This document shows, in pieces, positions 3,966-41,019 of a DNA stretch of 41,019 nt (position 1 is the stretch's first letter; every line of letters begins with the position of its first letter). A program made the position numbers and the translations under genes. The stretch is from a virus (Duplodnaviria > Heunggongvirae > Uroviricota > Caudoviricetes): IMG/VR virus record IMGVR_UViG_2671180770_000025. One strand, given 5' to 3'. The notes under the pieces are model-generated. The model was given only the letters and a program-made list of their open reading frames with translations. It had not been told where the DNA came from and made no database searches.

Positions 3966-4433
3966 TTTGCTGCTCCTCATCATATCGACCCTGCAAGGTC
4001 GGTTAGTTTCTCCACAAAACAGAGAAGAACACCTGCGGTGACTGCCGCCCGGATGGATTGGGTTATGAGCCCGTCGTCCGGTGATGCTCTTCTCTGTTTT
4101 GTAAAAAGGACGGTACCAGCCGGAAGCAAGGGTACAAGCTGGTACCGCCAAGACTACACACAGCATAAAGTTGTGGTGCCGGGTGCCTCCCGGTGCCTGG
4201 CGAAGGTTGCACACCAGGCGGGTGGGTATCCACAGAAGGTCGACTGTCAGCCTCAACCTTAACCCGCGTGCGCTGAGCCGCATTCACCACAACGCTAAGG
4301 ATTCTCTCTGGTTGAAAATACTTAGCTGTTATGTGCCTGCTTTTAGCCACATCAGGCGAGGTGGACCTAGTTATTCCCCAACAACAAGGATTCGGTTAAT
4401 CTGGTTATCCCCAACAACGCAAAAGGAAAAGAA

Positions 4434-8127: not shown

Positions 8128-8129
8128 TC

Positions 8130-8618
8130 ATGAGTCTTTTGAATGACGTTCAGAAATTCATTGAAGCCCATCCGGGGTGTACTTCCGGAGACATTGCGGA
8201 TGCTTTTGCAGGTTACTCACGACAGCGCGTTCTGCAGTCAGCAAGCAAGTTACGTCAGAGTGGGCGTGTGGCTCACCGTTGTGAAGGGGATACACGCAGA
8301 CATTTCCCGCGGCTGACTGAGATACCGCAGGAGCCGGAACCGCAACCAGTTCGTGAATCCAGACCTGTGCGCAATTTCTATGTCGGCACTAACGATCCCC
8401 GGGTGATTTTGTGCCTGACCCGCCAGGCGGAAGAACTGGAGTCCAGGGGCTTATACCGTCGTGCTGCAACGGTGTGGATGGCGGCATTCCGTGAAAGCCA
8501 CTCCCAGCAAGAGCGAAACAATTTTCTTGCGCGTCGTGAACGGTGTTTACGGAAAAGCAGTAAGCAGGCTGCATCAGGTGAAGAGTGGTATCTCTCAGGG
8601 AATTACGTGGGGGCTTAA
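8130..8618 (+). CDS. Hypothetical regulator, possibly PerC-family
   Basis: C-terminal LESRGLYRRAATVWMAAFRESHSQQERNNFLARRERC resembles the PerC conserved region as recalled; N-terminal winged-helix-like segment. Confidence 0.35.
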   Translation: MSLLNDVQKFIEAHPGCTSGDIADAFAGYSRQRVLQSASKLRQSGRVAHRCEGDTRRHFPRLTEIPQEPEPQPVRESRPVRNFYVGTNDPRVILCLTRQAEELESRGLYRRAATVWMAAFRESHSQQERNNFLARRERCLRKSSKQAASGEEWYLSGNYVGA

Positions 8619-9271
8619 TGAGTAATAAATATTGCCAGGCGCTGGCGGAACTGCGGAACAAACCAGCCCATGAACTGAAGGAAGTGGGCGATCAGTGGCG
8701 CACGCCGGACAACATTTTCTGGGGAATTAACACCCTGTTTGGCCCGTTTGTTCTGGATCTGTTCACTGACGGTGATAACGCCAAATGTGCTGCGTATTAC
8801 ACGGCGGAAGACAACGCGCTGGCGCATGACTGGTCAGAACGCCTTGCGGAGCTTAAAGGTGCTGCCTTTGGTAATCCCCCATACAGCCGCGCCAGTCAGC
8901 ATGAGGGGCAATACATTACCGGCATGCGTTACATCATGAAGCATGCCAGTGCCATGCGTGATAAAGGCGGGCGCTATGTTTTCCTGATCAAAGCTGCCAC
9001 CAGCGAAGTGTGGTGGCCGGAAGATGCAGATCATATTGCTTTTATTCGCGGGCGTATTGGTTTTGAACTGCCTGCCTGGTTTATCCCGAAGGATGAGAAG
9101 CAGGTGCCGACAGGCGCTTTCTTCGCTGGTGCTATTGCTGTTTTCGACAAGACCTGGAAGGGACCGGCAATCAGCTACATCGGGCGCGATGAACTTGAGG
9201 CATGTGGTGAGGCCTTTCTGGCGCAGGTTCGCCAGCAGGCAGAAAAACTGGTCAGGGAGATGGCGGCATGA
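8618..9271 (+). CDS. dam: Phage DNA N6-adenine methyltransferase (Dam-like)
   Basis: Catalytic motif FGNPPYS (DPPY-type); ATG overlaps the upstream stop (TAATG). Confidence 0.75.
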   Translation: MSNKYCQALAELRNKPAHELKEVGDQWRTPDNIFWGINTLFGPFVLDLFTDGDNAKCAAYYTAEDNALAHDWSERLAELKGAAFGNPPYSRASQHEGQYITGMRYIMKHASAMRDKGGRYVFLIKAATSEVWWPEDADHIAFIRGRIGFELPAWFIPKDEKQVPTGAFFAGAIAVFDKTWKGPAISYIGRDELEACGEAFLAQVRQQAEKLVREMAA

Positions 9272-9594
9272 CGACGTTAACTCAATGCCAGCAGCAGGTG
9301 CTGGATATGCTGATTTCTTATCAGAAAGAACGTGGCTTCCCGCCAACCAATCAGGAGGTGGCAACCATGCTGGGATACCGTTCAGTGAATGCAGCGGTGG
9401 AGCATCTTCGCGCACTGGAGAAAAAAGGCGTCATCACGATAAAGCGTGGCGTGGCCCGGGGCATCACGCTTCATACCGCGGTGAAGGACGACGACAGCGA
9501 GGCGGTCGGGATTATCCGCTCACTGCTTGCCGGTGAGGAAAACGCAAGGCTGCGTGCAACCCACTGGTTACATGAGAGGGGCCTGAAAGTATGA
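9268..9594 (+). CDS. LexA N-terminal DNA-binding domain protein lacking the S24 peptidase domain (108 aa)
   Basis: MTTLTQCQQQVLDMLISYQKERGFPPTNQEVATMLGYRSVNAAVEHLRALEKKGVITI aligns to the E. coli LexA N-terminus; no Ser-Lys peptidase domain follows. Confidence 0.7.
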   Translation: MTTLTQCQQQVLDMLISYQKERGFPPTNQEVATMLGYRSVNAAVEHLRALEKKGVITIKRGVARGITLHTAVKDDDSEAVGIIRSLLAGEENARLRATHWLHERGLKV

Positions 9595-9980
9595 AGCTGA
9601 TCCTGCCTTTTCCACCCAGCGTGAACACGTACTGGCGACACCCCAACAAAGGGGCGTTTGCTGGTAAGAGCCTGATAAGCGCGGCGGGGCGAAAATTCCA
9701 GAGCGCGGCGTGTGCAGCAATAGTTGAGCAGTTACGTCGTCTGCCGAAACCAACGTCGGCACCTGCTTCAGTGGAGATCGTGTTGTTTCCTCCGGATAAC
9801 AGGATCCGCGATCTGGACAACTATAACAAGGCGCTGTTTGACGCCCTGACCCACGCGGGGGTGTGGGAAGACGACAGTCAGGTGAAAAGAATGCTGGTGG
9901 AGTGGGGATCGGTTATCCCGGAAGGGAAGGTCGAGATCACTATCAGTAAGTACGAGAAAACGGCGGGTGCAGCCGCCTGA
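9591..9980 (+). CDS. rusA: RusA Holliday-junction resolvase
   Basis: N-terminal LPFPPSVNTYWR motif and conserved acidic residues (DLDNYNKALFDAL); ATG overlaps the upstream stop. Confidence 0.8.
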   Translation: MKLILPFPPSVNTYWRHPNKGAFAGKSLISAAGRKFQSAACAAIVEQLRRLPKPTSAPASVEIVLFPPDNRIRDLDNYNKALFDALTHAGVWEDDSQVKRMLVEWGSVIPEGKVEITISKYEKTAGAAA

Positions 9981-10810: not shown

Positions 10811-11806
10811 GTGACCGTGAGAGCACTACTGACCCCTGAAATTGCCCCGCGTATGGGGATCGTATTGTTCAGGCCAGGTTCAGAGCTGATGCCCTTGTTT
10901 ATGCAGGGGCGTGTCCTGCTGGAGCCTGAGCCGGAACGTTATTCATCTTTCGCCAGTGGTGCCGTTCCCGCGGCATCACAACCGCTGGCGGATGATCCTG
11001 CCGTTCGGGCCGTGTTCCGCAATGAGGCAGTGATCCGTCGTGCTGGTGGCGTGGAATGTCTTGAAAGCTGGTTACTTCGTGAAAAAGGCTGCCAGTGGCT
11101 TCATTCCGACTGGCACAGCGAGAACATGACAACAATGCGACACGCTCCGGGCGCAATCCGTCTGTGCTGGCACTGCGATAACCAGCTGCGCGATCAGTTC
11201 ACGGAACGGCTGGAATCAATGGCAACGGATAACTGTGCCCGCTGGGTGTTGTCTGTTGTGCGTCGGGATCTCGGTTTTGATGACAGTCACGTTGTGACAA
11301 TGCCGGAACTGTGCTGGTGGCTGATTCGTAATGACCTGGCGGACGCCTTACCGGAAAGTGCAGCCCGTAAGGCACTGAGATTACCGAAGCCTGTTGTGCC
11401 GTCTGTCACCCGGGAAAGTGACCTTGTGCCTTCGGTTCCTGCCACCAGCATCATCCAGGATAAGGCGAAAAAGGTGCTGGCGCTGAAAGTGGATCCGGAG
11501 TCGCCGGAGTCTTTTATGTTACGCCCAAAACGTCGCCGCTGGGTTAATGAAAAGTACACGCGCTGGGTTAAGACACAGCCGTGTGCATGTTGTGGAAAGC
11601 CTGCTGATGATCCCCACCACCTGATAGGTCACGGTCAGGGTGGAATGGGAACAAAAGGGCATGACCTCTTTGTGTTGCCTTTGTGCAGAAAGCATCACGA
11701 CGAGCTGCATGCGGATACCGTGGCATTTGAAGAGAAGTATGGCTCCCAGCTGGAGCTGATATTTCGTTTTATCGATCGTGCGCTGGCAATAGGTGTACTG
11801 GCGTAA
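10811..11806 (+). CDS. DUF968-family protein with C-terminal Cys/His HNH-like motif; start uncertain
   Basis: C-terminal CACCGKPADDPHHLIGHGQGGMGTKGHDLFVLPLCRKHHDELH; typical nin-region position. Confidence 0.55.
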   Translation: MTVRALLTPEIAPRMGIVLFRPGSELMPLFMQGRVLLEPEPERYSSFASGAVPAASQPLADDPAVRAVFRNEAVIRRAGGVECLESWLLREKGCQWLHSDWHSENMTTMRHAPGAIRLCWHCDNQLRDQFTERLESMATDNCARWVLSVVRRDLGFDDSHVVTMPELCWWLIRNDLADALPESAARKALRLPKPVVPSVTRESDLVPSVPATSIIQDKAKKVLALKVDPESPESFMLRPKRRRWVNEKYTRWVKTQPCACCGKPADDPHHLIGHGQGGMGTKGHDLFVLPLCRKHHDELHADTVAFEEKYGSQLELIFRFIDRALAIGVLA

Positions 11807-11819
11807 GTGGAGAACGAGC

Positions 11820-12572
11820 ATGAACCTTGAAGCCTTACCGAAATATTACTCCCCAAAATCTCCAAAATTGAGCGATGACGCACCGGCGACAGGCTCTGGT
11901 GGTTTAACAATTACGGATGTGATGGCTGCGCAGGGGATGGTGCAGTCGAAAGCACCGCTTGGGTTTGCCTTATTCCTGGCAAAAGTTGGTGTTCAGGATC
12001 CTCAGTTTGCGATTGAAGGTCTGCTCAATTACGCGATGGCACTGGATAACCCGACATTGAATAAATTGAGTGAAGAAACCCGGCTACAGATTATTCCTTA
12101 CCTTGTGAATTTTGCCTTTGCTGATTATTCCAGGTCTGCGGCAAGTAAGGCTCGCTGTGAGCATTGTGCTGGTACTGGATTTCATAATGTATTGCGCGAA
12201 GTGGTGAAACACTCCAGAAGCGGGGAATCTGTTATCAAGGAAGAGTGGGTGAAGGAACTATGTCAGCATTGTCATGGTAAGGGAGAAGTCAGCACAGCGT
12301 GCAGAGGGTGTAAGGGTAAAGGTATTGTCCTGGATGAAAAAAGGACCCGGCTTCATGGCACGCCTGTTTATAAGATTTGTGGGCGTTGCAATGGAAATCG
12401 GTTTAGCCGTTTACCAACCACACTGGCGCGGCATCATGTCCAGAAGCTGGTACCAGACCTGACGGATTATCAGTGGTACAAAGGATATGCAGATGTCATT
12501 GATAAACTGGTGACAAAGTGCTGGCAGGAAGAAGCATATGCTGAGGCGCAATTAAGAAAAGTGACGAGATAA
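11820..12572 (+). CDS. Q: Late-gene antiterminator Q
   Basis: Cys-rich zinc-finger region (CEHCAGTG ... CQHCHGKG ... CRGCKGKG ... CGRCNG) in a lambdoid Q-like protein directly upstream of a strong promoter and terminator; SD GTGGAGAA. Confidence 0.7.
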   Translation: MNLEALPKYYSPKSPKLSDDAPATGSGGLTITDVMAAQGMVQSKAPLGFALFLAKVGVQDPQFAIEGLLNYAMALDNPTLNKLSEETRLQIIPYLVNFAFADYSRSAASKARCEHCAGTGFHNVLREVVKHSRSGESVIKEEWVKELCQHCHGKGEVSTACRGCKGKGIVLDEKRTRLHGTPVYKICGRCNGNRFSRLPTTLARHHVQKLVPDLTDYQWYKGYADVIDKLVTKCWQEEAYAEAQLRKVTR

Positions 12573-14912: not shown

Positions 14913-15263
14913 TTATTTATTGAAGATCTGAAATAGAAGGCTACATATCGTAGCAATATTTGCCCCATAAGATAGGTATTTTGTAAACCCTATTCTATCA
15001 AATACAGTTAGCTGCTCTTGTTCAGTAGTAGCTTTGCTACTTACCAGCTCTTCATATGCCTGCTTTAGTTGTTCCAGAGGCGTTTCAGCTCTAATTCCTG
15101 CTGCATGAAGAGCCTGGATATTATCTTTATAGTTGACTCCGTGTCCTTCATTTTCAGAGATATCAGTACCTATTATGACTAAATCTAAAGGATTACCGGC
15201 CTCGACTCTAATGCCATCACCGCCATTACCTTTAATACGGCCACCAATTAATGTTAATGTCAT
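14913..15263 (-). CDS. Hypothetical 116-aa protein, AT-rich moron on the minus strand
   Basis: SD AAGGAAAG 8 nt upstream of ATG 15263; GNGGDGIRVEAGNPLDLVIIGTDISENEGHGV looks beta-helix-repeat-like; no lipobox. Confidence 0.5.
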   Translation of the reverse strand: MTLTLIGGRIKGNGGDGIRVEAGNPLDLVIIGTDISENEGHGVNYKDNIQALHAAGIRAETPLEQLKQAYEELVSSKATTEQEQLTVFDRIGFTKYLSYGANIATICSLLFQIFNK

Positions 15264-23533: not shown

Positions 23534-23704
23534 ATGTTTGTGAAACCTGTTAAAGGGCGGTCAGTGCCTGACCCTGCCCGCGGTGACCTTTTGCCCGCCG
23601 AAGGGCGAAATGTTGACGAGAACAACTACTGGCTGCGCCGTGAAGCAGCGGGTGATATCCGGCGCGTGAATAAAAAGGTGAACACCGATGACGATAAGCT
23701 TTAA
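23534..23704 (+). CDS. Small hypothetical protein (56 aa) upstream of and overlapping the sheath start
   Basis: ATG 23534 to TAA 23702..23704; below the track cutoff; assignment tentative. Confidence 0.3.
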   Translation: MFVKPVKGRSVPDPARGDLLPAEGRNVDENNYWLRREAAGDIRRVNKKVNTDDDKL

Positions 23705-25183
23705 CACCATTCCGTCGAATACGCTGGTTCCGCTGTTTTATGCGGAAATGGATAACTCGGCGGCGAATACTGCACAGGACAGCGGGGCATCGTTGCTGAT
23801 TGGTCACGCCAATAACGGTGCAGAGATTGTTGCCAACAGTCTGGTGCTGATGCCGTCGGCAGACTATGCACGCCAGATTTGTGGTGCGGGAAGTCAGCTG
23901 GCGCGTATGGTCGAGGCTTATCGCCAGACCGACCCGTTTGGCGAGCTGTATGTGATTGCCGTTCCGGAAGCCACAGGCGCGGCGGCAACGGTTACGCTGA
24001 CGGTGACCGGAGCAGCAACCGAAACCGGCACGGTGAATGTGTATGTGGGACGTACCCGCGTGCAGGCACCGGTGACCAACGGCGATAACGTCACGACGAT
24101 TGCCAGCAGTATCAAAGATGCCATCAATGCCGTTCCGGCCCTGCCGTTTACGGCCTCATCTTCGGCAGGCGTGGTCACACTGACCGCGCGTCATAAGGGG
24201 CTTTGCGGGAATGAAATTCCTGTCAGCCTCAATTACTACGGCTTTGGTGGGGGCGAAGTGCTGCCAGCGGGTGTACAGATTGCCGTGGCGACGGGGACCG
24301 CCGGAACGGGCGCTCCGGTTCTCACCGGTGCGGTGGCTGCAATGGCGGATGAGCCGTTTGATTATATCGGTCTGCCGTTCAACGACACGGCCTCCGTTAA
24401 CACGCTGGTGACCGAGATGAACGATACCAGCGGTCGCTGGAGCTATGCGCGTCAGCTGTATGGTCATGTGTATACGGCAAAGATCGGCACGCTGTCAGAA
24501 CTGGTGACCGCAGGTGACCAGTTTAACCAGCAGCACATCACCCTGGCGGGGTACGAAAAAGAGACCCAGACGCCTGCCGACGAGCTGGCGGCAAGCCGTA
24601 CCGCCCGCGCAGCGGTGTTTATCCGCAACGATCCGGCACGTCCCACGCAGACCGGTGAGCTGGTGGGTATGCTGCCTGCGCCGAAGGGGAAACGGTTCAC
24701 GATGACCGAGCAGCAGACCCTGCTGTCTCATGGCGTGGCAACGGCGTATGTCGAAAGCGGGGTGCTGCGCATTCAGCGTGATGTCACCACGTACAGGAAA
24801 AATGCTTACGGGGTTGCGGATAACAGCTACCTCGACAGCGAGACGCTGCATACCAGTGCGTATGTACTGCGCAAACTGAAATCCGTCATTACCAGTAAGT
24901 ACGGGCGTCACAAGCTTGCCTGTGACGGTACCCGCTTTGGCCCGGTCAGGCGATTGTCACCCCGGCGGTGATCAAAGGGGAACTGCTGGCAACCTACCGT
25001 CAGCTCGAGCGTGCGGGGATCGTGGAAAACTACGAACTGTTCAAGCAGTACCTGGTTGTGGAGCGTGATGCCAGCGATCCGAACCGCCTGAACACGCTGT
25101 TCCCGCCTGACTATGTTAACCAGTTGCGTGTCTTTGCCGTGGTTAACCAGTTCCGTCTTCAGTATTCAGAGGAGTCTGCATAA
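23688..25183 (+). pseudogene. Tail sheath gene (Mu gpL-like) interrupted by a -1 frameshift near 24942..24946
   Basis: Frame 0 ORF 23688..24971 (427 aa) and frame -1 ORF ending 25183 (71 aa) read as one continuous sheath protein if one G is added in ggcccg(g)gtcagg; the downstream ORF stop overlaps the tube start (TAATG). Confidence 0.65.
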
Positions 25184-25808: not shown

Positions 25809-25957
25809 CGGCTGAATACCTTACTGATCGCTTCTTTGATTGCGCCAGCTACTGGCGCATTAATCCCTTCGAATTGCTGAATATGCCGATCAGTGAAATT
25901 CCCTTGCTGGTCAGTCAGGCAAACAGGATAGAGCAGGAGAAACGCACACATGGCTGA
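25539..25957 (+). CDS. Tail assembly chaperone, extended form via programmed -1 frameshift at 25790..25796
   Basis: The -1 frame stays open from the slippery site to 25957 (FFPPGLTAEYLTDRFFDCASYWRINPFELL...) and ends overlapping the tape measure start. Confidence 0.55.
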
Positions 25958-27782
25958 ATTTGAGCTTAAGGCGTTGATCACCGGTGTCGACAGGCTTTCT
26001 CCCGCGCTGTCGAAAATGCAAAAGAAAATCCGGGGATTTAAACGCCAGGCGGAAGAAGCGTCACAGGGTGGGCTGGCGCTTGGTGGCGGACTGGCAGCGG
26101 GTCTGACGCTTTCCCTGAAATCTTATGCCGATCAGGAAAACGCCGCCACCGGGCTGAAAGTCGCCATGATGGATGCGAATGGCGAGGTTGGAAAGAGCTT
26201 TCAGGACATCAATAAACTGGCTATTGGCCTGGGTAACCAGCTACCCGGTACAACGGCTGATTTCCAGAACATGATGCAGATGCTGGTGCGTCAGGGGATC
26301 CCGGCAGAAAACATTCTTGGCGGTGTGGGTAAAGCGACAGCTTATCTTGCGGTACAACTGAAAAAAACACCGGAAGCGGCTGCTGAGTTTGCTGCAAAGA
26401 TGCAGGATGCTACCGGAACGGCGTCAGAAGACATGATGGGGCTGTTCGACACTATCCAGAAGGCGTTTTATCTGGGCGTTGACGATACCAACATGTTGTC
26501 CTTCTTCACTAAAACCAGTTCTGTTCTGAAGATGGTGAACAAGGACGGTCTTCAGGCTGCACAGAGCCTTGCCCCCATCAGCGTCATGATGGATCAGATG
26601 GGGATGAACGGGGAGTCGGCAGGTAATGCCCTGCGAAAAGTTATCCAGTCCGGATTAAGCGTTAAGAAAATCAGGGACGTCAATAAAATCATGGCCCGCC
26701 AGAAACTCGGGGTACAGCTCGATTTTACTGACGGCAAAGGAAGTTTTGGCGGTCTTGATAACATGTTCAGGCAACTGGCAAAGCTGCGAAAACTGACCGA
26801 CGTTAAGCGAACAGGTGTACTTAAGGCAATATTTGGTGATGATGCCGAAACCCTTCAGGTGGTCAATGCACTAATCGATAAAGGAAAGGATGGCTACGAT
26901 CAGATCCAGCAGAAGATGAATAAACAGGCCAGCCTGAATAAACGTGTTCAGGCCCAGCTTGGTACGCTGTCCAACCTGTGGGAGGCAATGACGGGGACCG
27001 CAACTAACGGCCTTGCGGCTATTGGCGGCGCATTTTCTGGTGACGCCAAAAATATCACGCAATGGCTGGGGGAGTTGGGGGAGAAATTCACGAGGTTTGC
27101 GGATGAAAATCCCCGGGTTATTCGCGGCGTCGTCGGGCTTGCTGCCGGTCTTGCGATTCTGAAACTGGGATTGATGGGCGTGGGCAGTGCCATCAGTATC
27201 GTCAGCAGGATCATGTCGATGACGCCGATTGGCATGATTGCGACGGCGATTGCCCTGGCTGCGGGATTAATTATCACTAACTGGGATGTTGTCGGACCTT
27301 ATTTTAAGAAACTCTGGGAAACCATTAGTCCTTATTTTGAGGCTGGCTGGGAACTTCTGAAGAAGGTTTTTGCCTGGTCGCCGCTGGGGATGGTGATCAA
27401 TAACTGGGGACCGGTTGTTAAGTGGTTTCAGGATATGTGGGATAAGCTGAAGCCGATTATTGAATGGTTTACCGACAGTTCCGGTGACACGGTCGATGCC
27501 ATTAACTCGGCGCAGTGGGGCGCGGGTGCTTATGATGCTTATGGGACGGGAATACCGGCACGGGGATACACTCCTTATCCGGCGGTGGATCCGGCTCAGG
27601 CAAACAACGCCTCCGATGCCACAGGCTCGAATCCCTTCATGATTAATAAAGCTACCGCGCCAAAAGTTGATGGTGAGATCAAGGTATCATTTATAAATAT
27701 GCCACCAGATATGCGGGTTACGGAAACACGCTCCAGTGGCATTGATATAAATCACGATGTTGGCTATACCCGATTTTGGTAG
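25950..27782 (+). CDS. Tail tape measure protein
   Basis: 610 aa, helical with Gly-rich hydrophobic stretches; follows the chaperone frameshift pair. Confidence 0.75.
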   Translation: MAEFELKALITGVDRLSPALSKMQKKIRGFKRQAEEASQGGLALGGGLAAGLTLSLKSYADQENAATGLKVAMMDANGEVGKSFQDINKLAIGLGNQLPGTTADFQNMMQMLVRQGIPAENILGGVGKATAYLAVQLKKTPEAAAEFAAKMQDATGTASEDMMGLFDTIQKAFYLGVDDTNMLSFFTKTSSVLKMVNKDGLQAAQSLAPISVMMDQMGMNGESAGNALRKVIQSGLSVKKIRDVNKIMARQKLGVQLDFTDGKGSFGGLDNMFRQLAKLRKLTDVKRTGVLKAIFGDDAETLQVVNALIDKGKDGYDQIQQKMNKQASLNKRVQAQLGTLSNLWEAMTGTATNGLAAIGGAFSGDAKNITQWLGELGEKFTRFADENPRVIRGVVGLAAGLAILKLGLMGVGSAISIVSRIMSMTPIGMIATAIALAAGLIITNWDVVGPYFKKLWETISPYFEAGWELLKKVFAWSPLGMVINNWGPVVKWFQDMWDKLKPIIEWFTDSSGDTVDAINSAQWGAGAYDAYGTGIPARGYTPYPAVDPAQANNASDATGSNPFMINKATAPKVDGEIKVSFINMPPDMRVTETRSSGIDINHDVGYTRFW

Positions 27783-27810
27783 CCAGGATTCCCCTCACAG
27801 GTATTGCTGG

Positions 27811-27838
27811 TTGTAAGTCATAAATAGAGTGATAGAAT
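27811..27838 (+). promoter_or_regulatory. Candidate sigma70 promoter for the tail-module moron
   Basis: -35 TTGTAA (27811..27816), 16-nt spacer, -10 TAGAAT (27833..27838). Confidence 0.4.
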
Positions 27839-27873
27839 TAATGCACATTTAGAAAAATGTTAATAGGCGAAAA

Positions 27874-28404
27874 ATGAAAGGCTATATCACAGCAAGTGTA
27901 ATTCTTGGAGCAGCGGCTATTTTTTCATCTCTCATAATCTCTGGCAACATCTCCTTTAAAGATGAACATATTATTCAGTTATCTGGAGGAGCCATAAAAC
28001 TTGGTGATGTTTATAAAGAAAATAAATTGATAAGTGCAAAGATTATTTTTCCAGATAATCAGGGTGAACAGATTCTTGTTGTCGACGGCAATCCTGAAAA
28101 CTTTAAGGAGGATTTTCAGGAGAAATTAAATAAAGTAATAAAAACTTTAAATGCGTCAAAGAAAAAAGATGAAGAGAAAGTTAGCCTGGATAATTTAAGT
28201 GTTATTGAAGAGTCTAAACTAGAGCTCGTTTCTGCGGTGCGTTACTCTGCTCAGTATGTTCCTATGTTTACTCTGACGCTGGACAAAAAAGAAATTACCA
28301 TGCCTAAAAATACTGTAATATTTCCATTTGCCAGCGATGAAACAGCTAAGTATTTAAATGAACAACAGCAAAAGTATAAAGATTCGTTGTTTCTGACTCG
28401 CTAA
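27874..28404 (+). CDS. Hypothetical 176-aa membrane-anchored or secreted protein, AT-rich moron inside the tail operon
   Basis: N-terminal hydrophobic segment (ITASVILGAAAIFSSLIISG); Lys/Glu-rich body; AT-rich versus GC-rich flanks; own promoter-like and terminator signals. Confidence 0.55.
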   Translation: MKGYITASVILGAAAIFSSLIISGNISFKDEHIIQLSGGAIKLGDVYKENKLISAKIIFPDNQGEQILVVDGNPENFKEDFQEKLNKVIKTLNASKKKDEEKVSLDNLSVIEESKLELVSAVRYSAQYVPMFTLTLDKKEITMPKNTVIFPFASDETAKYLNEQQQKYKDSLFLTR

Positions 28405-28423
28405 TTAATAAAATTCATTACAA

Positions 28424-28454
28424 GGCCACCTTCTAATAGGTGGCTTTTTTATTT
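28424..28454 (+). terminator. Intrinsic terminator after the tail-module moron
   Basis: gccacc-ttctaata-ggtggc stem-loop followed by tttttt. Confidence 0.6.
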
Positions 28455-28465
28455 TCGGAGTGTAT

Positions 28466-29794
28466 ATGACGTGGAAAGACAGGCTTCAGGATGCGTCATT
28501 TCGAGGTGTGCCGTTTAAGGTTGAAGAAGAAAGTGCGGGAACCGGTCGCCGTGTGGAAACACATGAATACCCGAACCGCGACAAGCCCTATACCGAAGAT
28601 CTGGGAAAAGTCACTTTCCGCCCGTCCATCACAGCTTATGTGGTGGGAGATGACTGCTTTGACCAGCGCGATCGCCTGATTGAAGCGCTGAATAAACCAG
28701 GTCCCGGCACGCTTGTCCACCCGACATATGGTGAGCTGAAAGTCTGTGTTGACGGGGAAGTTCGGGTCAGCACATCGAAAAGTGAAGGGCGTATTGTCCG
28801 CTTTGACCTGAAGTTTGTCGAAGCAGGAGAACTCTCTTACCCCACATCAGGTGCGGCGACGGCGCAGACGCTGATGTCATCCTGTTCTGCACTGGATGAC
28901 TGCATCAGTGACAGCTTCAGCGGTTTCAGTATCGATGGTGTGGCGGATTTCGTGCAGAACGACGTTATCGGTAATGCCAGCATAATGCTGGGGTATGTTT
29001 CTGATGCGATGAAAGTGGTGGATTCTGCCGTATCGGATGCCGCCAGGCTGTTGCAGGGGGATATCTCGGTACTTCTGCCGCCGCCATCGTCAGGCAAAAA
29101 TTTCGTTGAGCAGGTGCAGAAAATGTGGCGTACCGGGAAACGCCTTTATGGTAACGCCAGCGACCTGGTCACCATGATCAAAACGCTTTCTGGTGTCAGC
29201 CTCGGCAGCGATTTGCAACCGCGCGGCGTCTGGAAAACGGACAGTAAAACCACCGCCACAGCGACGCAGCAGCGTAACATGGTTGCCAGCACCCTTCGTA
29301 CGACTGCAATCAGCGAAGCGGCGTATGCCGTTACCCGATTGCCTGCGCCAACAACTTCTGCGGTGATGCAGAATGCCGCAGTGGGGCAGTCAACAACACC
29401 CGCGCAGAGCTCCGGCTGGCCTTCCGTCACGCATCCGGCACTGAACAATGCACCGGCGGTGAAAAACACGGTTGACCTGCCAACGTGGGAAGAACTGACC
29501 GACATTCGCGACACACTGAATACGGCAATTGATAAGGAGTTGTCCCGTACAACCAGTGATGCGCTGTTTCTGGCGCTGCGCCGGGTGAAAGCAGATCTGA
29601 ATGCGGATATCAACACGCGCCTTGAACAGTCTGCTCGGATCATTCAGCGCACACCGGATGAGGTTTTACCCGCGCTGGTGCTGGCGGCGACCTGGTTTGA
29701 TAACGCGGCGCGTGACGCGGACATTATCCGGCGTAATGCCATTACGCATCCCGGCTTTGTGCCGGTGATCCCTCTGAAGGTGCCAGTGCAATGA
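28466..29794 (+). CDS. DNA circulation protein (Mu gpN-like)
   Basis: 442 aa after the tape measure; SD GGAG 7 nt upstream of ATG 28466. Confidence 0.55.
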   Translation: MTWKDRLQDASFRGVPFKVEEESAGTGRRVETHEYPNRDKPYTEDLGKVTFRPSITAYVVGDDCFDQRDRLIEALNKPGPGTLVHPTYGELKVCVDGEVRVSTSKSEGRIVRFDLKFVEAGELSYPTSGAATAQTLMSSCSALDDCISDSFSGFSIDGVADFVQNDVIGNASIMLGYVSDAMKVVDSAVSDAARLLQGDISVLLPPPSSGKNFVEQVQKMWRTGKRLYGNASDLVTMIKTLSGVSLGSDLQPRGVWKTDSKTTATATQQRNMVASTLRTTAISEAAYAVTRLPAPTTSAVMQNAAVGQSTTPAQSSGWPSVTHPALNNAPAVKNTVDLPTWEELTDIRDTLNTAIDKELSRTTSDALFLALRRVKADLNADINTRLEQSARIIQRTPDEVLPALVLAATWFDNAARDADIIRRNAITHPGFVPVIPLKVPVQ

Positions 29795-35931: not shown

Positions 35932-37821
35932 TTAATCGTGTTTTGGCCATACTTTCAATGCAATTTCCCCCAACTTTTTACCCCGCTCCAGGATTTCATC
36001 CTCATCCCATTTATCCTTAACTATAAGTGGAATGTTCAGTCGTAGATTGGTGTGGACGATGAGAGCATCACGTTTTTTCAGAAATACAGCATTCTGAACA
36101 GAACGGTTTACGCTAAGGTTAAGCAAAGTTAGATTTCCCAACGTAGCTATCGCTTGTTGCCGTTTCCTTACCAGTAGCTGTTCAGGGGTAAGATCGGTTC
36201 CAGACAGAACAATTTGGTTCAATACCGTAGCATCTGAATTTGTCACCATATGACCATTTTCGAGAGGCCAACAGGAATACCAACTTTGAGGCATAAGATG
36301 ATCGATATCGAGGTTAGAAAGATTTGGAACATCAGGCTTCTCTGTCTTCACTTGGCGACAAAGTTCTCTTTCAAGTTCCGTTAACATTGAGCGCATTTTC
36401 GGTGCGTCGAGCCTGCCAGGATAAAGTGGAGCATTGATGCAAGCGTTGAGAAATTCTGAGTCCCCAGGCCAACGTGAGGCTTCGCCATTTAAGCTATTGA
36501 GGATATTACGTAACTCAACACTGGAAATTTCCGTTTTAGACAAGTGCCGCAATACATTCATAAATACATTGTTGTAATTCTTTGGCGTCAGGCCACATAC
36601 GGCTCTTCGTACTACGTAGGAGACAAGATCATTATACATGGCTGCTTTCTCATCATCGGCGATGTTAGCTATCGAAATGAACAAAGCAAGCGGATAAAGT
36701 GTCGTCACATCATAGGCTGCGATGCGATGTCCAAAGTGTGAGATGGGGGTTGTGCCAAAACCACCAACCAATTCTTTATATTGTGATGCATATTGTTTGA
36801 GGCGCTTTACTTGCAGATCTGCTCGTTGTGAAGGCAAGTCCTTACTTACATAATCACGATACTCATTGTAAAGACGAGACAGATCGATTTCACGTTGCCT
36901 TTCTGATTGCAATGTCGCATGCACTAGCCACTCCATGCGTGGTTTATTAATACGACCACGACGTTGTCTTTCTGACCAGTACGTATCTTCAAAGATCTTC
37001 CACTCATTCTCATATAATTCAACAGCATTAATATTTTCATGTTCAGCGCACATAAAAATATAATTGCGAATAAGATCTGTGGCATGAAGTTCCGCACCTC
37101 TGCCATTTAATGTTTCAAAAATTATTTGAGCGTCATCTTCAGCCTCGAGAAATATGCTTACTAGTTTCAGATCCGTCAAGACAGCCTCAATTAATGCTAC
37201 AGCATTTTCTCGTGGTGAGTGATTTTCTATTTTAATCCACTTTATAAAGGCTTCAGTAAAAAAACATAATGCTTCTAGTGATGGCGGGTGATTAAAATGC
37301 TTACGCAACGTACCATGCTGCGTGAAACTATCAGAGAATACATTCCGGATATCGTCAATATTTTCAACATTAAAACTTTGAATAAAATGAGTTTGATCCC
37401 GAAAAGTTGGCCACAGTTTGAAGCGCTCTACTTCTTTATTTCGCATTGTGTCTTCGTTTGAGTTTTTCAGGCAAGACGAAATGAGAGGCTCTAAGTTGGA
37501 AAGATCTGTCGCACGTAATGCTAATCGGATGGATGCCAGAACATATTGAAGAGTGGTCAATCGTTGCTGACCATCAATAATATGTATGGAATCTACACCT
37601 AATAATCCTTTTTTTGGTTGAGGTTCCAGTACCACTGCACCAAGGAAATGGGGAGTTGGTTTTGTACCCGAGAGCCGGGATTGTGCTTTCTCTAGGATAT
37701 CCTCCAGTAGAGCTGACCATTGGTTTCGCTGAGTCCATACATAGGCACGTTGATAGAATGGAACGCAGTATTGTCGGCGGTCTTGAAAAAGTTGTTGGAC
37801 AGTTAGCGTCTCGGATTTCAT
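35932..37821 (-). CDS. DUF262/DUF1524 two-domain nuclease (GmrSD-like, candidate type IV restriction / anti-phage enzyme); start may be 37881
   Basis: N-terminal DUF262 motifs (VPFYQRAYVWT, IIDGQQRLTTL); C-terminal DUF1524-like His-Me motif (NLDIDHLMPQSW); about 40% GC cargo. Confidence 0.7.
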   Translation of the reverse strand: MKSETLTVQQLFQDRRQYCVPFYQRAYVWTQRNQWSALLEDILEKAQSRLSGTKPTPHFLGAVVLEPQPKKGLLGVDSIHIIDGQQRLTTLQYVLASIRLALRATDLSNLEPLISSCLKNSNEDTMRNKEVERFKLWPTFRDQTHFIQSFNVENIDDIRNVFSDSFTQHGTLRKHFNHPPSLEALCFFTEAFIKWIKIENHSPRENAVALIEAVLTDLKLVSIFLEAEDDAQIIFETLNGRGAELHATDLIRNYIFMCAEHENINAVELYENEWKIFEDTYWSERQRRGRINKPRMEWLVHATLQSERQREIDLSRLYNEYRDYVSKDLPSQRADLQVKRLKQYASQYKELVGGFGTTPISHFGHRIAAYDVTTLYPLALFISIANIADDEKAAMYNDLVSYVVRRAVCGLTPKNYNNVFMNVLRHLSKTEISSVELRNILNSLNGEASRWPGDSEFLNACINAPLYPGRLDAPKMRSMLTELERELCRQVKTEKPDVPNLSNLDIDHLMPQSWYSCWPLENGHMVTNSDATVLNQIVLSGTDLTPEQLLVRKRQQAIATLGNLTLLNLSVNRSVQNAVFLKKRDALIVHTNLRLNIPLIVKDKWDEDEILERGKKLGEIALKVWPKHD

Positions 37822-38554
37822 GGTATACCTGTAAGCGACATTGTACAAAAGTGAGGAGTTAATCTGATTTAGAACAATCATTTTATGTTGCTATGATACA
37901 ACGTATTTGTTACCGGTTAAGTAAAAAACGCGTCTGAACGCTGACGTTTTAGGGCTTTACTAGTTATTCTTTCTTATCTCTTCATCATCCCATCGGCATC
38001 CTGTCGAGGTTGTTGACTTGTTGTTATTTATTTTGTTTAGGCGCTGTTTAATTATTATTGATGGGACTGGTGGTGAGAGGTGATTGAAACCGCAGACAGG
38101 TCGTATGCAAGACGTGCTGCGGTTGGCTGGTAAATGTTAGATAGTGCGAGTATTGAATGATTTCTAGCCGTTATTGATTTTACGTATTTTTGTATGAGAG
38201 GATTTGCATCTCCTGCCACCGACCCTCCATGACTTTACGCCACTGTCTCTAGGGCTGCTATGTGCCAAAAGCGGAAGTTGAGGGGGGATGGCAAGCACTC
38301 GTATCGTGGCAAAATTTTGGCTACCGCTTCTCCCGGTCGCAACCGATTTAGTTGACTATGGCGCGTGTGTTAATCAACGGGGAGGAAGTTAGAGGAAACA
38401 ATAAATAAAGACATAACCGTCTGTTTTTATTTAAATTATTGACTGATGCGAGGAGTTGAACTTCCGATACCCCATGATATCTTACTTAGATAGTGAGATG
38501 ATCTAAGATACACTATATAAGTTACAATCTAGCCGGAGATGTAGGAGGGAGTAT

Positions 38555-39358
38555 ATGGGGTATGATTATAAAGAGCATATTAGCAATGCTAAGAGGCTCT
38601 ATGAAATTGGGGATAACGCTTCTTTAAGATACTGTGCATTGGAATTGAGATTTGCAATTGAGTGCCATGTATATATTCAATTAAGAGCAGGGCTAGGAAC
38701 AATTCCAGAGACGGTAATTAACACATGGCAACCACCTCAAGCAATAAAATCTTTATGCATGTTTGAGGAAACAGCAGATCAGGATTTAAAAGTAACTATA
38801 ACTTGTGATGACTCTAATGAGATAACAGCAAACTATAAAAATATTAAGTATAAGGACCTTAATAAATGGTATAATACCCTTGGGAGTTTTTTACATCAAC
38901 CAACCATAAAAAAGCAAGAATTTCAAGTAGATAAAGATAAACTAAATTCGATATTATCGAATTTAGCTGAACTGTGCGATCATCAGCTCATAACATTTCA
39001 TCGTGGTTATGAGAAAATAAAATGTGAAAAATGTAAAAAGGAAATTATTTTTACTAAAAATTACGTGAAAAAAAATAATAAAATAGATTGCCAAAATGCT
39101 GGTTGCCATAATTATGTTATTATTAGACTTGCCCCGGATGGTACATATGAATCACTCCAATCTGCTGTAGTAGCTTGCTTTATATGTGGTGAAAAAAACC
39201 ACATCTCATTATGCGACATGGAGGATGGAGCAGAGTTATATTGCAAGACGTGTAAAAATAAACATGTAATTAAAAAAGCTATTTTCTCCCAAGACAAAGT
39301 TGTTCCCATACCTGAATTTACTTTCGAAAACTCATTGTTGGTTGAGGACAAAGAGTAA
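38555..39358 (+). CDS. Hypothetical 267-aa protein: helical N-terminal region with R-x5-H motif, C-terminal double zinc-ribbon-like region
   Basis: Very AT-rich; ELRFAIECH fits Rx4-6H; CEKCKK...CQNAGCH and CFICGE...CKTCKNKH Cys clusters; no recognised family. Confidence 0.5.
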   Translation: MGYDYKEHISNAKRLYEIGDNASLRYCALELRFAIECHVYIQLRAGLGTIPETVINTWQPPQAIKSLCMFEETADQDLKVTITCDDSNEITANYKNIKYKDLNKWYNTLGSFLHQPTIKKQEFQVDKDKLNSILSNLAELCDHQLITFHRGYEKIKCEKCKKEIIFTKNYVKKNNKIDCQNAGCHNYVIIRLAPDGTYESLQSAVVACFICGEKNHISLCDMEDGAELYCKTCKNKHVIKKAIFSQDKVVPIPEFTFENSLLVEDKE

Positions 39359-39586
39359 CATCAAGTTGTTTGTAGAGCTTGCTTGACCTGCTCCCCGTTG
39401 ATTAATACATATTTCTGCTGGTCATATCATTATTTTGAGCCTGACGGCTTGATCAACTCAGTCCGCTGTTCGCTCATAGCGGACCTTACAACCACCTGAT
39501 TGGTCCGTTCCGTGTCAGGAGCGGATACCGTAAGCATTTTATCCTCTGGAGGGGCATCCCTTTCAAGAAATGCATCCGTTGTGGAT

Positions 39587-40018
39587 TTATGCAACACCTG
39601 AAGCTACTAACAAAGAACAATTTGTCTGACCAAAGGCATTTTTTAGCAGCGGGAAAAGAGGGGGAAGTTCCGTTAGCGATTTTAGAGGCTTGAGGCTCTT
39701 AAGTGATTTAAGTGATGGCAAATTAGGTGTGGTAACCATGTCTTTTACTGCACAGGCAACATAGCCATCGTGATCAATCAACATACCATTAGTAAACCAG
39801 CCTAAATGATTCCCATTGAATCCATAAACATCAAACTCATTGTTCTGGTTATGTTTAAGGTAGGCGCTTGGTTCACCCTCCCAACTATATAAAGTCAACT
39901 CGTCATCAAGTGAAATATAAACGACGGCGTTGCCTTGATTATCATATAGATCTAGGTCATTACTCGCAGTAACACAAGCTGAGAAAAGAAACATAACTAG
40001 CACGAGTGATTTTTTCAT
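39587..40018 (-). CDS. Secreted hypothetical protein with C-terminal LKS repeat (143 aa)
   Basis: N-terminal signal peptide MKKSLVLVMFLFSACVTA; C-terminal PSLKSLKSLKPLKSL repeat encoded by a short tandem DNA repeat. Confidence 0.45.
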   Translation of the reverse strand: MKKSLVLVMFLFSACVTASNDLDLYDNQGNAVVYISLDDELTLYSWEGEPSAYLKHNQNNEFDVYGFNGNHLGWFTNGMLIDHDGYVACAVKDMVTTPNLPSLKSLKSLKPLKSLTELPPLFPLLKNAFGQTNCSLLVASGVA

Positions 40019-40353
40019 AACTTCTCAAGTTTCTTAGAAAGGAAAAGTTCGAACATTCTATCAAAATTATGAGGACACTAACTTCCGATTTTCGCTCATA
40101 ACAGACATTCACTACAGTTATGGTAGAAGGTATGCATGCTGGGTGGGGAAAGTATGAAGGAAAAGAAGACTGCTGCGCCGTTTGTCGTCACGTTTATCTT
40201 CATTGGCTATGCAAGTCGTAATACAAGGTGGGACAAAACTGAGACACATAAGGCCTCGCAATGGCTTGCAAGGCTTTACATGTTTTGATGTGGTGGGACG
40301 TGTGAGCGCAGTGTTGATGGGGTAATGCTTTGAATTAGAAGCGGATTCTTATA

Positions 40354-40399
40354 ATTCGTAATGCGAAGGTCGTAGGTTCGACTCCTATTATCGGCACCA
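40354..40399 (+). other. attR: 46-nt 3' partial copy of tRNA-Thr (thrW-like, anticodon CGU) from anticodon loop to CCA
   Basis: attcgtaatgcgaaggtcgtaggttcgactcctattatcggcacca matches the 3' portion of E. coli thrW as recalled; the 5' half of the tRNA is absent here. Confidence 0.7.
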
Positions 40400-40563
40400 T
40401 CCCCACTTCTTCAAACGTCCGTATTTGTCCATAAGCATACTGTTTTATAAAAGATTTTTTGTTATCGTTGTCCGTGTTAGTCCATAACCTTCCAGTAGAA
40501 TCCAGTACTAAATGTGTATAGGATTATGTATATGTTCCTGTTCGATTTTGGAATTCTATACAC

Positions 40564-41019
40564 ATGCCCCTAAATGATATGCAGATTCGCCGTGCTAAAC
40601 CTGAAGCTAAAGCCTATACACTTGGGGATGGGCAAGGGTTGTCTTTACTTGTAGAGCCAAATGGAAGTAAAAGCTGGCGATTTCGTTATCGCTATGCAGG
40701 TAAACCTAAAATGATCTCGCTTGGTGTTTATCCAACGATCACACTTGCTGAAGCTCGCGCCCGCCGTGATGAGGCCAGAAAAATAGTGGCCGAGGGAAAA
40801 AATCCTAGTGAGGTTCGAAAAGAACAAAAATTAGCATTACGAATTCAATCTGAGAACGCATTCGAAAAGATTGCCAGAGAGTGGCATCAGATGAAGTCGG
40901 CAAAATGGTCTGCTGGGTATGCCTCAGATATTATTGAGGCGTTCCAAAATGATATTTTTCCGTATGTAGGGACGAGGCCTGTAGGGGAAATTAAACCGCT
41001 AGAAGGCTTTGTTGAATAA
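40564..41019 (+). CDS. P4-type tyrosine integrase, N-terminal part (runs off the window end)
   Basis: MPLNDMQIRRAKPEAKAYTLGDGQGLSLLVEPNGSKSWRFRYRYAGKPK is a typical P4-like integrase N-terminus; just downstream of the tRNA fragment. Confidence 0.75.
   Translation: MPLNDMQIRRAKPEAKAYTLGDGQGLSLLVEPNGSKSWRFRYRYAGKPKMISLGVYPTITLAEARARRDEARKIVAEGKNPSEVRKEQKLALRIQSENAFEKIAREWHQMKSAKWSAGYASDIIEAFQNDIFPYVGTRPVGEIKPLEGFVE

What the first reader, a model, noticed from the sequence alone, without database searches (positions are those of the whole stretch)
27783..28454. Self-contained moron encoding a membrane or secreted protein inserted between tape measure and DNA circulation genes
An AT-rich block interrupts the GC-rich tail operon and carries a sigma70-like promoter, a 176-aa ORF with an N-terminal hydrophobic segment, and a strong intrinsic terminator. 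Lysogen-expressed morons inside tail clusters are often superinfection-exclusion or receptor-masking factors; the protein has no family I recognise.
Basis: partly seen in the sequence, partly recalled or inferred. Interest (0 to 1): 0.5.

Follow-up and report, generated by a model that had tools for sequence, protein, structure and literature searches.

The report
Exported-protein moron in prophage tail operon
An E. coli prophage carries a horizontally acquired, AT-rich add-on gene between two tail genes that encodes a periplasm-facing protein of an uncharacterised family; it sits in a slot that related prophages leave empty or fill with other exported proteins, and its function, possibly blocking infection by other phages, is untested.

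Summary
Window 27783-28454 is a 34% GC block inside a 50-60% GC tail operon of an SfV-like E. coli prophage. It carries one intact 176-aa ORF (27874-28404), a promoter-like site and a strong hairpin plus T-run.

Comparison shows it is an accessory cassette. SfV and about half of 1,093 E. coli genomes with this tail junction have nothing there, and about 16% carry this gene. Others carry one of at least four unrelated cargos, three with export signals and one on the opposite strand.

The protein belongs to PHROG 5485 (unknown function) and matches nothing in Pfam, NCBIfam, PADLOC or PDB. It has one N-terminal membrane or signal segment and a confidently modelled alpha/beta domain predicted to face the periplasm. 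It is under purifying selection.

Homologues at 33-58% identity occupy the same slot. A 30% homologue sits between hub and spike genes of an unrelated contractile tail. Others are chromosomal orphans.

"Moron" is well supported. The promoter is only plausible, and the hairpin partly belongs to the slot. Superinfection exclusion is the best guess but has no direct evidence. This is a new member of a known kind, of moderate interest.

The parts
25950..27782 (+). Tail tape measure gene (left flank, backbone)
   Evidence: PF10145 at 1.3e-26 and PHROG tape-measure families. Similarity to SfV runs up to its last codons.
27783..27873 (+). 91-nt upstream spacer of the cassette. It holds the promoter-like site: -35 TTGTAA at 27811-27816, TG at 27830-27831, and -10 TAGAAT at 27833-27838.
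   Evidence: 9 of 12 match, extended -10, but not above the shuffle expectation. Both hexamers are invariant in 75 E. coli copies. There is no similarity to SfV in this spacer.
27874..28404 (+). CDS of 176 aa belonging to PHROG 5485. Residues 3-22 form the membrane or signal helix (nt 27880-27939). Residues from about 33 to 171 form an alpha/beta domain predicted to be periplasmic.
   Evidence: dN/dS is 0.08-0.14 between orthologues. E. coli alleles show 14 synonymous and 10 mostly conservative non-synonymous variant codon changes.
28422..28457 (+). Intrinsic-terminator-like hairpin (28422-28447) and T-run (28448-28457). It forms the right border of the variable segment, and backbone similarity resumes at about 28439 inside the 3' arm.
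   Evidence: Equivalent hairpins occur in the empty SfV-type slot and in the variants with a forward-strand cargo.
28466..29794 (+). DNA-circulation / baseplate-hub gene, Mu gp43 (N)-like (right flank, backbone)
   Evidence: PF07157 at 3.8e-34 and PHROG 184 'baseplate hub'. PGAP places the start at the ATG at 28466.

Best explanation
This is a moron: a horizontally acquired, AT-rich, single-gene cassette. It lies in a hypervariable cargo slot between the tape-measure and DNA-circulation (hub) genes of an SfV-like prophage, which combines a lambdoid head and Q antiterminator with a Mu-like contractile tail.

The gene encodes a protein of about 19 kDa from an uncharacterised family, PHROG 5485. 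Its single N-terminal hydrophobic segment inserts N-in, as a signal anchor or possibly a cleaved signal peptide. That places a compact alpha/beta domain (four strands, helix, two strands, helix) in the periplasm.

I infer two routes of transcription. One is its own weak sigma-70 promoter in the lysogen. The other is Q-antiterminated late read-through, which must cross the hairpin to reach the baseplate genes.

The most likely function is a benefit to the lysogen at the cell envelope. My preferred mechanism is superinfection exclusion after adsorption. The periplasmic domain would intercept components that incoming contractile-tailed phages eject first (tape measure, hub or spike), or the envelope factor they need, and so block genome entry.

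Shown: insertion, composition, intact and selected ORF, export-type N-terminus, terminator, slot polymorphism. Inferred: own transcription, periplasmic topology, function.

My confidence by step is about 0.9 for moron or accessory cassette, about 0.8 for a periplasm-facing exported protein, and about 0.3-0.35 for phage exclusion specifically.
For: Insertion and composition:
- The block is 34% GC against 50-60% in the flanks.
- SfV has a 45-nt gap at the same junction.
- 1,093 of 5,426 complete E. coli genomes carry this junction, and 172 carry this gene.
- An even-step sample of 60 records gave 31 empty, 10 with this gene, 4 with a membrane-anchored OB-fold protein on the minus strand, 3 with a 164-aa signal-peptide protein and 1 with a bPH_1 protein. 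A further 162-aa signal-peptide protein was found in another record.
- The alternative cargos are also AT-rich and unrelated to this family.

A real, selected gene:
- The cluster holds 524 near-identical sequences.
- There are 79 clusters at 50% identity, with the near-full-length members about 166-203 aa.
- dN/dS is 0.084/1.07 and 0.010/0.074 between orthologue pairs.

Topology:
- Each of the 43 aligned members has one N-terminal hydrophobic segment.
- The N flank has net charge +2.1 and the C flank -0.6.
- AF2 with the deep alignment gives pLDDT 89.4, with helix 3-22 followed by a globular domain.
- The only structural neighbour among viral models is a lipoprotein of Pseudomonas phage ventosus with a lipobox (LLTGC), which is another envelope tether.

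Recurrent placement next to the ejected tail parts:
- Homologues at 53-58%, 38% and 33% identity occupy the same slot.
- A 30% homologue lies between hub and spike genes of an unrelated tail module, again AT-rich with a terminator.

Benefit independent of the virion:
- Chromosomal orphan copies occur in Enterobacter and Kluyvera.

Precedent:
- HK97 gp15 is a tail-operon moron next to the tape-measure gene. It is an inner-membrane protein that blocks genome entry in a tail-dependent way (PMC3594210).
- SNIPE and Tab are defences that target tape measure proteins (PMC13190303, PMC10884400).

Read-through:
- A Q antiterminator gene lies at 11793-12572.
Against: - No expression data exist.
- The promoter-like site is not above chance. 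Orthologous loci do not share a positionally conserved promoter: no forward-strand hit upstream of the gene in L003, L093 or L094.
- There is no sequence or fold similarity to any characterised exclusion protein or defence system.
- The family is not confined to phages, so a general envelope function is equally compatible.
- Cleaved versus anchored cannot be decided from sequence.
- In this window the sheath gene carries a 1-nt deletion, so the prophage may be defective. The cassette's current role may then differ from its ancestral one.
Confidence: 0.45

Rival explanations
1. It is a lysogenic-conversion factor unrelated to phage defence. The exported envelope protein would change host physiology, for example serum resistance, adhesion, envelope-stress tolerance or colonisation, in the manner of lambda Bor or Lom.
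For: The protein is exported and the cassette is AT-rich. Family members are fixed at ordinary chromosomal sites in Enterobacter (next to omptin and btuE) and Kluyvera, and lie in non-phage-looking contexts in metagenomes. Carriers include clinical, avian-pathogenic and commensal isolates. There is no PADLOC hit.
Against: Every phage-borne copy examined lies beside the tape-measure, hub or spike genes, in two unrelated tail modules. A general fitness factor would not predict this. No similarity to any known virulence or fitness factor was found.
Confidence: 0.3
2. It is a late lytic-cycle accessory protein made only by read-through of the tail operon. During lytic growth it would act in the periplasm, like T4 Sp or Imm, or T5 Llp. 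It would exclude superinfecting phages, or stop progeny from wasting themselves on the dying cell and its debris.
For: The gene is on the same strand as the late operon, with no terminator between the tape-measure stop codon and the gene. Own-promoter evidence is weak and inconsistent across orthologues. A Q antiterminator is present. The structural neighbour in phage ventosus belongs to a phage I know as lytic (own knowledge; the record itself does not state a lifestyle), so there it must act during lytic growth.
Against: Chromosomal orphan copies have no late operon to drive them. One alternative cargo in the same slot is antisense to the operon and so must be transcribed on its own. L090 has a near-consensus promoter, TTGTCA-16-TATAAT, read by eye.
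Confidence: 0.15
3. It is a tail structural or assembly component of this tail lineage.
For: It has a fixed position inside the tail operon in four diverged lineages and is under purifying selection.
Against: It is absent from SfV, a viable phage with the same tail, and from about half of related E. coli prophages. It has an export-type N-terminus and foreign base composition. Unrelated genes replace it, one on the other strand. Homologues occur outside prophages.
Confidence: 0.03
4. It is a non-functional passenger: a decaying or silent piece of foreign DNA, for example silenced by H-NS.
For: It is AT-rich and has no known family. One of 75 E. coli copies is frameshifted (L083). Truncated copies exist in the databases.
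Against: The reading frame and length are conserved from 100% down to about 25% identity. dN/dS is about 0.1. 74 of 75 copies are intact. The fold is confidently predicted.
Confidence: 0.04

Closest known systems
HK97 gp15 moron (superinfection exclusion; YebO-related)
   Same: It is a single-gene cassette inside a tail operon next to the tape-measure gene, and it is absent from close relatives. It encodes a small membrane protein and has chromosomal bacterial homologues. Its exclusion acts on genome entry and depends on the incoming phage's tail region (PMC3594210).
   Different: No sequence relationship was found: no Pfam or PHROG family is shared. The host phage here has a contractile tail, not a siphovirus tail. 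The protein here is larger (176 aa) and has a folded periplasmic domain. Its function is untested.
T4 Sp and Imm; lactococcal Sie2009; S. thermophilus Ltp (own knowledge, plus PMC3952083 for Ltp)
   Same: These are small envelope-tethered proteins, anchored by an N-terminal helix or a lipid, whose extracytoplasmic domain blocks DNA injection. Sp targets the tail-spike lysozyme of a contractile tail, and Ltp exclusion is linked to the tape measure protein.
T5 Llp and phi80/N15 Cor receptor-blocking lipoproteins (own knowledge; Cor in PMC3594210)
   Same: These are exported, envelope-anchored proteins encoded beside tail or receptor-binding genes. They protect the cell, or the progeny, by inactivating the receptor.
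   Different: They are outer-membrane lipoproteins. This protein has no lipobox or cysteine, and its long hydrophobic segment suggests an inner-membrane anchor. No similarity was found.
Defence or accessory hotspots of prophages and satellites (P2/P4 hotspots; cited in PMC11364771)
   Same: A fixed intergenic position in a conserved module is occupied by many unrelated, AT-rich, exchangeable cargo genes.
   Different: This slot lies inside the tail operon between the tape-measure and hub genes. Four of its five cargos seen here are small exported or membrane-anchored proteins rather than recognisable defence systems, and none matches PADLOC.
PHROG 5485 (unknown function)
   Same: The match is full length, 3.8e-108 over positions 1-176 of 176. 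All 43 family members tested hit it.
   Different: Nothing differs. This is the family the protein belongs to, and it has no annotation.

Membership tests
Moron (Juhala/Hendrix sense, as summarised in PMC3594210) | Extra DNA present at a precise junction and absent from closely related phage genomes | tested here: met
   SfV has a 45-nt gap at this junction. 31 of 60 sampled E. coli junctions are empty. The variable segment runs from about 27780 to 28438.
Moron (Juhala/Hendrix sense, as summarised in PMC3594210) | Base composition differs from the surrounding genes | tested here: met
   GC is 0.34 against 0.50-0.60. The same holds for the homologue in an unrelated tail module, 0.33-0.42 against 0.55-0.60.
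Moron (Juhala/Hendrix sense, as summarised in PMC3594210) | Own promoter | tested here: inconclusive
   The window has TTGTAA-16-TGnTAGAAT, a 9 of 12 match, but 3 sites were found against 3.2 expected. A comparable hit occurs in L007, and by eye in L090. L003, L093 and L094 have none upstream of the gene at this threshold.
Moron (Juhala/Hendrix sense, as summarised in PMC3594210) | Own terminator | tested here: met
   A 10-bp hairpin plus T-run, dG -15.6 and z -4.4. Caveat: the empty SfV-type slot also has a hairpin, and the 3' arm is shared with the backbone.
Moron (Juhala/Hendrix sense, as summarised in PMC3594210) | Expressed from the repressed prophage | not testable with these tools
   This needs RNA-seq or 5'-RACE on a lysogen.
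PHROG 5485 | Full-length profile match | tested here: met
   E 3.8e-108 over positions 1-176 of 176. 43 of 43 aligned relatives match.
Known superinfection-exclusion or anti-phage defence protein families (as modelled in Pfam-A, NCBIfam, PADLOC) | Sequence match to a family model | tested here: not met
   No families at E up to 1 in Pfam, NCBIfam or PADLOC for this protein. Relatives gave only chance hits.
Superinfection-exclusion proteins (functional class) | Expression blocks infection at or after adsorption without repressor immunity | not testable with these tools
   This needs plating, adsorption and DNA-entry assays.
Exported or membrane-anchored periplasmic protein | Single N-terminal hydrophobic segment, positive-inside charge bias, no other membrane segment | tested here: met
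   Mean Kyte-Doolittle 2.1 for residues 5-23 in this protein. Across the family the mean is 2.25, the N flank is +2.1, the C flank is -0.6, and the highest second hydrophobic window is 1.2. AF2 models a helix at residues 3-22. Cleavage versus anchoring is not resolved.
Tail structural or assembly protein of Mu/SfV-like tails | Present in all phages that build this tail | tested here: not met
   It is absent from SfV and from most E. coli prophages with the same tail genes. tblastn found no match in 50,697 deposited phage genomes.

The most novel reading that the evidence does not exclude
The tape-measure/hub junction of SfV/Mu-like contractile tails would be a dedicated hotspot for exchangeable envelope cargo. 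PHROG 5485 would be a new class of periplasmic exclusion protein that recognises the tape measure, hub or spike ejected by incoming myophages. It would be kept genetically linked to the tail genes whose products it must spare or match. The same domain would be reused with a membrane-helix, signal-peptide or lipoprotein tether in temperate phages, a lytic phage and bacterial chromosomes.
Probability: 0.2. Interest if true: 0.7.

Novelty: new member of a known kind. Interest (0 to 1): 0.42.

Why it matters
Morons in tail operons are a known phenomenon, so the existence of this one is not surprising. Three things make it worth following up.

- It marks a previously undescribed, highly polymorphic cargo slot present in about one fifth of complete E. 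coli genomes. At least five unrelated cargos occupy it, and four of them are exported or membrane-anchored proteins.
- Its protein family is widespread but entirely uncharacterised. The confident predicted fold has no solved structural relative.
- Phage-borne members sit next to the genes for the parts a contractile tail ejects into the periplasm, in two unrelated tail types. That gives a concrete, cheap hypothesis: injection-stage exclusion of myophages. Few exclusion proteins are characterised for contractile-tailed temperate phages.

If the hypothesis is true, it would add a new envelope-level defence family and a new hotspot to mine. If it is false, the family is still an unstudied enterobacterial envelope protein.

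Tried and rejected
- tblastn of the protein against 50,697 deposited phage genomes found no match. Megablast of the region hit only the flanks.
- Pfam, NCBIfam, PADLOC and PDB sequence searches gave nothing meaningful, with the single sequence and with two profiles.
- The afdb50 fold library was unavailable.
- The Foldseek hit to the phage ventosus lipoprotein is significant structurally, but hhalign support is weak (probability 8.5%). I treat the homology as tentative.
- The search for related loci with broad alignments failed for lack of a conserved stretch. Single distant members found nothing in IMG/VR.
- The second word-indexed protein search added almost nothing.
- Rfam gave only sub-threshold attenuator-like matches caused by the terminator.
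- No paper mentions WP_000679479. The SfIV 'moron' in the literature is a different locus, between Q and the lysis genes.
- I considered whether the alternative slot cargos are diverged relatives of this family. They are not.
- I considered a tail structural role and rejected it; see the rival explanations.

Full report
**1. What is in the sequence**

The window is an E. coli prophage. It has an integrase at the left end (1-1164, minus strand) and a lambdoid Q antiterminator at 11793-12572. An HK97-type head module and a Mu/SfV-type contractile tail module follow.

Around the finding, the tape-measure gene (25950-27782, PF10145) and the DNA-circulation/hub gene (28466-29794, PF07157, PHROG 184) are separated by 683 bases.

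- GC falls from 0.50-0.60 to 0.30-0.37 across 27800-28500. It is 0.338 for 27783-28454.
- The block contains one ORF, 27874-28404, 176 aa. No ORF of 40 aa or more lies on the opposite strand within it.
- Upstream lies TTGTAA-16 nt-TGnTAGAAT (27811-27838).
- Downstream lies a 10-bp hairpin (28422-28447) followed by T6AT4. It folds at dG -15.6 kcal/mol, z -4.4.
- The promoter-like match is not statistically unusual: 3 sites found against 3.2 expected.
- Rfam finds nothing beyond sub-threshold attenuator look-alikes caused by the hairpin.

**2. It is an insertion in a polymorphic slot**

Phage SfV, whose tail genes are about 90% identical, has only 45 nt between the two genes. The alignment shows similarity up to the last codons of the tape-measure gene and none after. 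Similarity resumes at about 28439, inside the 3' arm of the hairpin.

In 5,426 complete E. coli genomes, 1,093 carry this junction and 172 carry this block at 80% coverage or more. An even-step sample of 60 records gave the following:

| Slot content | Records (of 60) |
|---|---|
| Empty | 31 |
| This gene | 10 |
| OB-fold (tRNA_anti-like) protein with an N-terminal membrane helix, encoded on the opposite strand (full length in the one copy read, 5'-truncated in another) | 4 |
| Unrelated 164-aa protein with a signal peptide | 3 |
| bPH_1 protein | 1 |
| More diverged junctions | 11 |

Of the three diverged junctions inspected, two were empty. One held yet another 162-aa signal-peptide protein with its own terminator.

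The four alternatives whose composition was measured are AT-rich (0.31-0.39), and the two signal-peptide proteins tested show no relationship to this family. In the variants with a forward-strand cargo, and in the empty SfV-type slot, a hairpin plus T-run sits immediately before the ribosome-binding site of the DNA-circulation gene. So the terminator is a feature of the slot border rather than of this cassette alone.

**3. The protein**

It is PGAP 'hypothetical protein' WP_000679479.1. It matches PHROG 5485 (unknown function) end to end. It matches nothing in Pfam, NCBIfam, PADLOC or PDB sequences. tblastn finds no copy in 50,697 deposited phage genomes.

An exhaustive profile search finds 79 clusters at 50% identity, and the near-full-length members are about 166-203 aa. 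In each of the 43 aligned members there is a single N-terminal hydrophobic segment. The N flank has net charge +2.1 and the C flank -0.6, which by the positive-inside rule puts the rest of the protein in the periplasm. Whether the segment is cleaved or stays as an anchor cannot be decided. Some distant members look like classical signal peptides.

Foldseek against viral models gives one significant hit, with E 3.5e-6 and TM-scores 0.56 and 0.66. It is a 144-aa protein of Pseudomonas phage ventosus, which I know as a lytic phage (own knowledge; the record does not state a lifestyle). I located it at MG018930 51995-52429, and it carries a lipobox (LLTGC). Profile support for homology is weak.

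The invariant residues L43, G44 and Y124, with G39, Y47, E49 and L134 nearly so, do not suggest a catalytic site.

**4. It is a real, selected gene**

- Between Leclercia/Lelliottia-type orthologues, dN/dS is 0.084/1.07 and 0.010/0.074.
- Among 75 E. coli copies from IMG/VR there are 14 synonymous and 10 mostly conservative non-synonymous variant codon changes.
- One of those 75 copies is frameshifted.
- The -35 and -10 hexamers are invariant, although overall diversity is low.

**5. Where relatives sit**

| Identity to this protein | Source | Position |
|---|---|---|
| 53-58% | Leclercia, Lelliottia and metagenomic prophages | Same tape-measure/DNA-circulation slot |
| 38% | P0029 | Same slot |
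| 33% | P0037 | Same slot; neighbours recognisable from their end sequences |
| 30% | P0041 | Different contractile-tail module |

P0041 lies in a module with a PhiTE-type tube and an E217 gp41-like hub. It sits between the hub gene (plus a 102-aa secreted protein) and the gpV-like spike gene. That copy is again an AT-rich island (0.33-0.42 against 0.55-0.60) ending in a hairpin plus T-run.

Close relatives of that same subfamily are chromosomal orphans. In two Enterobacter genomes the gene lies between an omptin gene and btuE. In Kluyvera it lies next to add. More distant members lie beside ordinary chromosomal genes.

The cassette therefore moves between phages and chromosomes. Within phages, every copy examined sits beside the genes for the tail parts that are ejected first.

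**6. Mechanism**

Shown: an accessory, foreign, selected gene for an exported protein, bounded by a terminator, in a slot that exchanges cargo.

Inferred from lambdoid biology: Q-modified polymerase must read through the hairpin to express the baseplate genes, so the gene is at least made late. A Q gene is present.

Inferred but unproven: independent expression in the lysogen. The promoter-like site is decent, with an extended -10, but is not above chance. Orthologues do not share a positionally conserved site. One cargo in the same slot is antisense and must be self-transcribed. Chromosomal orphans also need their own promoter.

My preferred function is exclusion at the injection step. This rests on topology, placement next to the tape-measure, hub and spike genes, and precedent. 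The main precedent is HK97 gp15, a tail-operon moron whose inner-membrane protein blocks entry in a tail-dependent manner (PMC3594210). Other defences also target tape measure proteins (PMC13190303, PMC10884400).

I put this at roughly one in three. The alternatives are a phage-unrelated envelope fitness factor at about 0.3 and a late-only lytic-cycle role at about 0.15. A structural role and a junk passenger are each below 0.05.

**7. Comparison and novelty**

By the classical criteria it is a moron. Three of five defining features are met, one is inconclusive and one is not testable here.

It is not a member of any characterised exclusion or defence family. It is a member of PHROG 5485.

Three points appear not to have been described:
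- the polymorphic tape-measure/hub slot, where four of the five cargos seen here are exported or membrane-anchored proteins;
- the recurrence of this family next to ejected tail components in two tail types;
- a confident fold without a solved relative.

No paper in the held library mentions the protein accession. Broader keyword searches for tail-operon morons returned nothing about this junction among the papers I opened, which is not an exhaustive check.

Overall this is a new member of a known kind, of moderate interest, with a cheap decisive experiment available.

Noticed in passing
window 27783-28454, with L008-L012 and L108-L110: The tape-measure/DNA-circulation junction is a multi-state cargo slot in E. 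coli prophages. States seen: empty, this gene, a bPH_1 protein (125 aa), a 164-aa and a 162-aa signal-peptide protein, and a membrane-anchored OB-fold (tRNA_anti-like) protein on the opposite strand that is 5'-truncated in one of the two copies read. Four of the five cargos carry export signals.
   Followed up: partly
window about 24940 (sheath gene 23688-25183): The tail sheath gene has a 1-nt deletion (TTTGG-CCCGG against TTTGGTCCCGG in E. coli EC1515). This splits the 498-aa protein into 427-aa and 71-aa ORFs. Either the prophage is tail-defective or it is a sequencing error.
   Followed up: partly
window 35932-41019: The AT-rich right arm carries a GmrSD-type (type IV restriction) gene at 35932-37881 on the minus strand. 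It also carries an unassigned 267-aa ORF at 38555-39358, a 'Bflower' protein at 39587-40018 on the minus strand, and the start of a second integrase at 40564-41019. This suggests a defence cargo region and an adjacent second integrative element. The right end differs from the otherwise near-identical EC1515 prophage, which abuts ssrA. No tRNA or tmRNA was found in the window.
   Followed up: partly
L002 (SfV) about 3970-4010; L012 about 800-835: Even the empty slot has a terminator-like hairpin (CCCACTCCGGTGGG followed by T6) between the tape-measure and DNA-circulation genes, in the middle of the late operon. In the window the 3' arm and T-run are shared with this backbone hairpin, while the 5' arm came with the cassette. 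The exchange junction therefore lies inside the hairpin.
   Followed up: partly
L003, L004, L005 and L007, about 8013-9820 (7424-7708 for the small ORF in L005): The Leclercia/Lelliottia-type prophages carry two extra genes, of 503-507 aa and 94 aa with no Pfam hit, between the DNA-circulation gene and the gpP-like hub gene. The E. coli window and SfV lack them. This looks like a second variable position in the same tail module.
   Followed up: no
L094 5609-5917: In the unrelated tail module, a 102-aa protein with an N-terminal signal-peptide-like sequence lies immediately upstream of the family member. It may be a second exported cargo gene in tandem.
   Followed up: no
L106 5001-5528; L107 4986-5513; L104 4998-5531: Chromosomal orphan copies of the family occur in Enterobacter, at a conserved site between an omptin-like outer-membrane protease gene and btuE, and in Kluyvera next to add. 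The Kluyvera copy is 72% identical to the prophage-borne P0041, which implies recent traffic between phage and chromosome.
   Followed up: partly
L103 1995-2429 (MG018930 51995-52429, minus strand): Pseudomonas phage ventosus encodes a 144-aa lipoprotein (lipobox LLTGC) whose predicted fold matches the periplasmic domain. It lies among non-structural and hypothetical genes, far from the tail module. GenBank annotates it only as hypothetical.
   Followed up: partly
window 14913-15263 (minus strand): A 116-aa minus-strand ORF with no Pfam hit lies in a 37% GC island between the lysis cassette and the HNH/terminase genes. It may be another moron.
   Followed up: no
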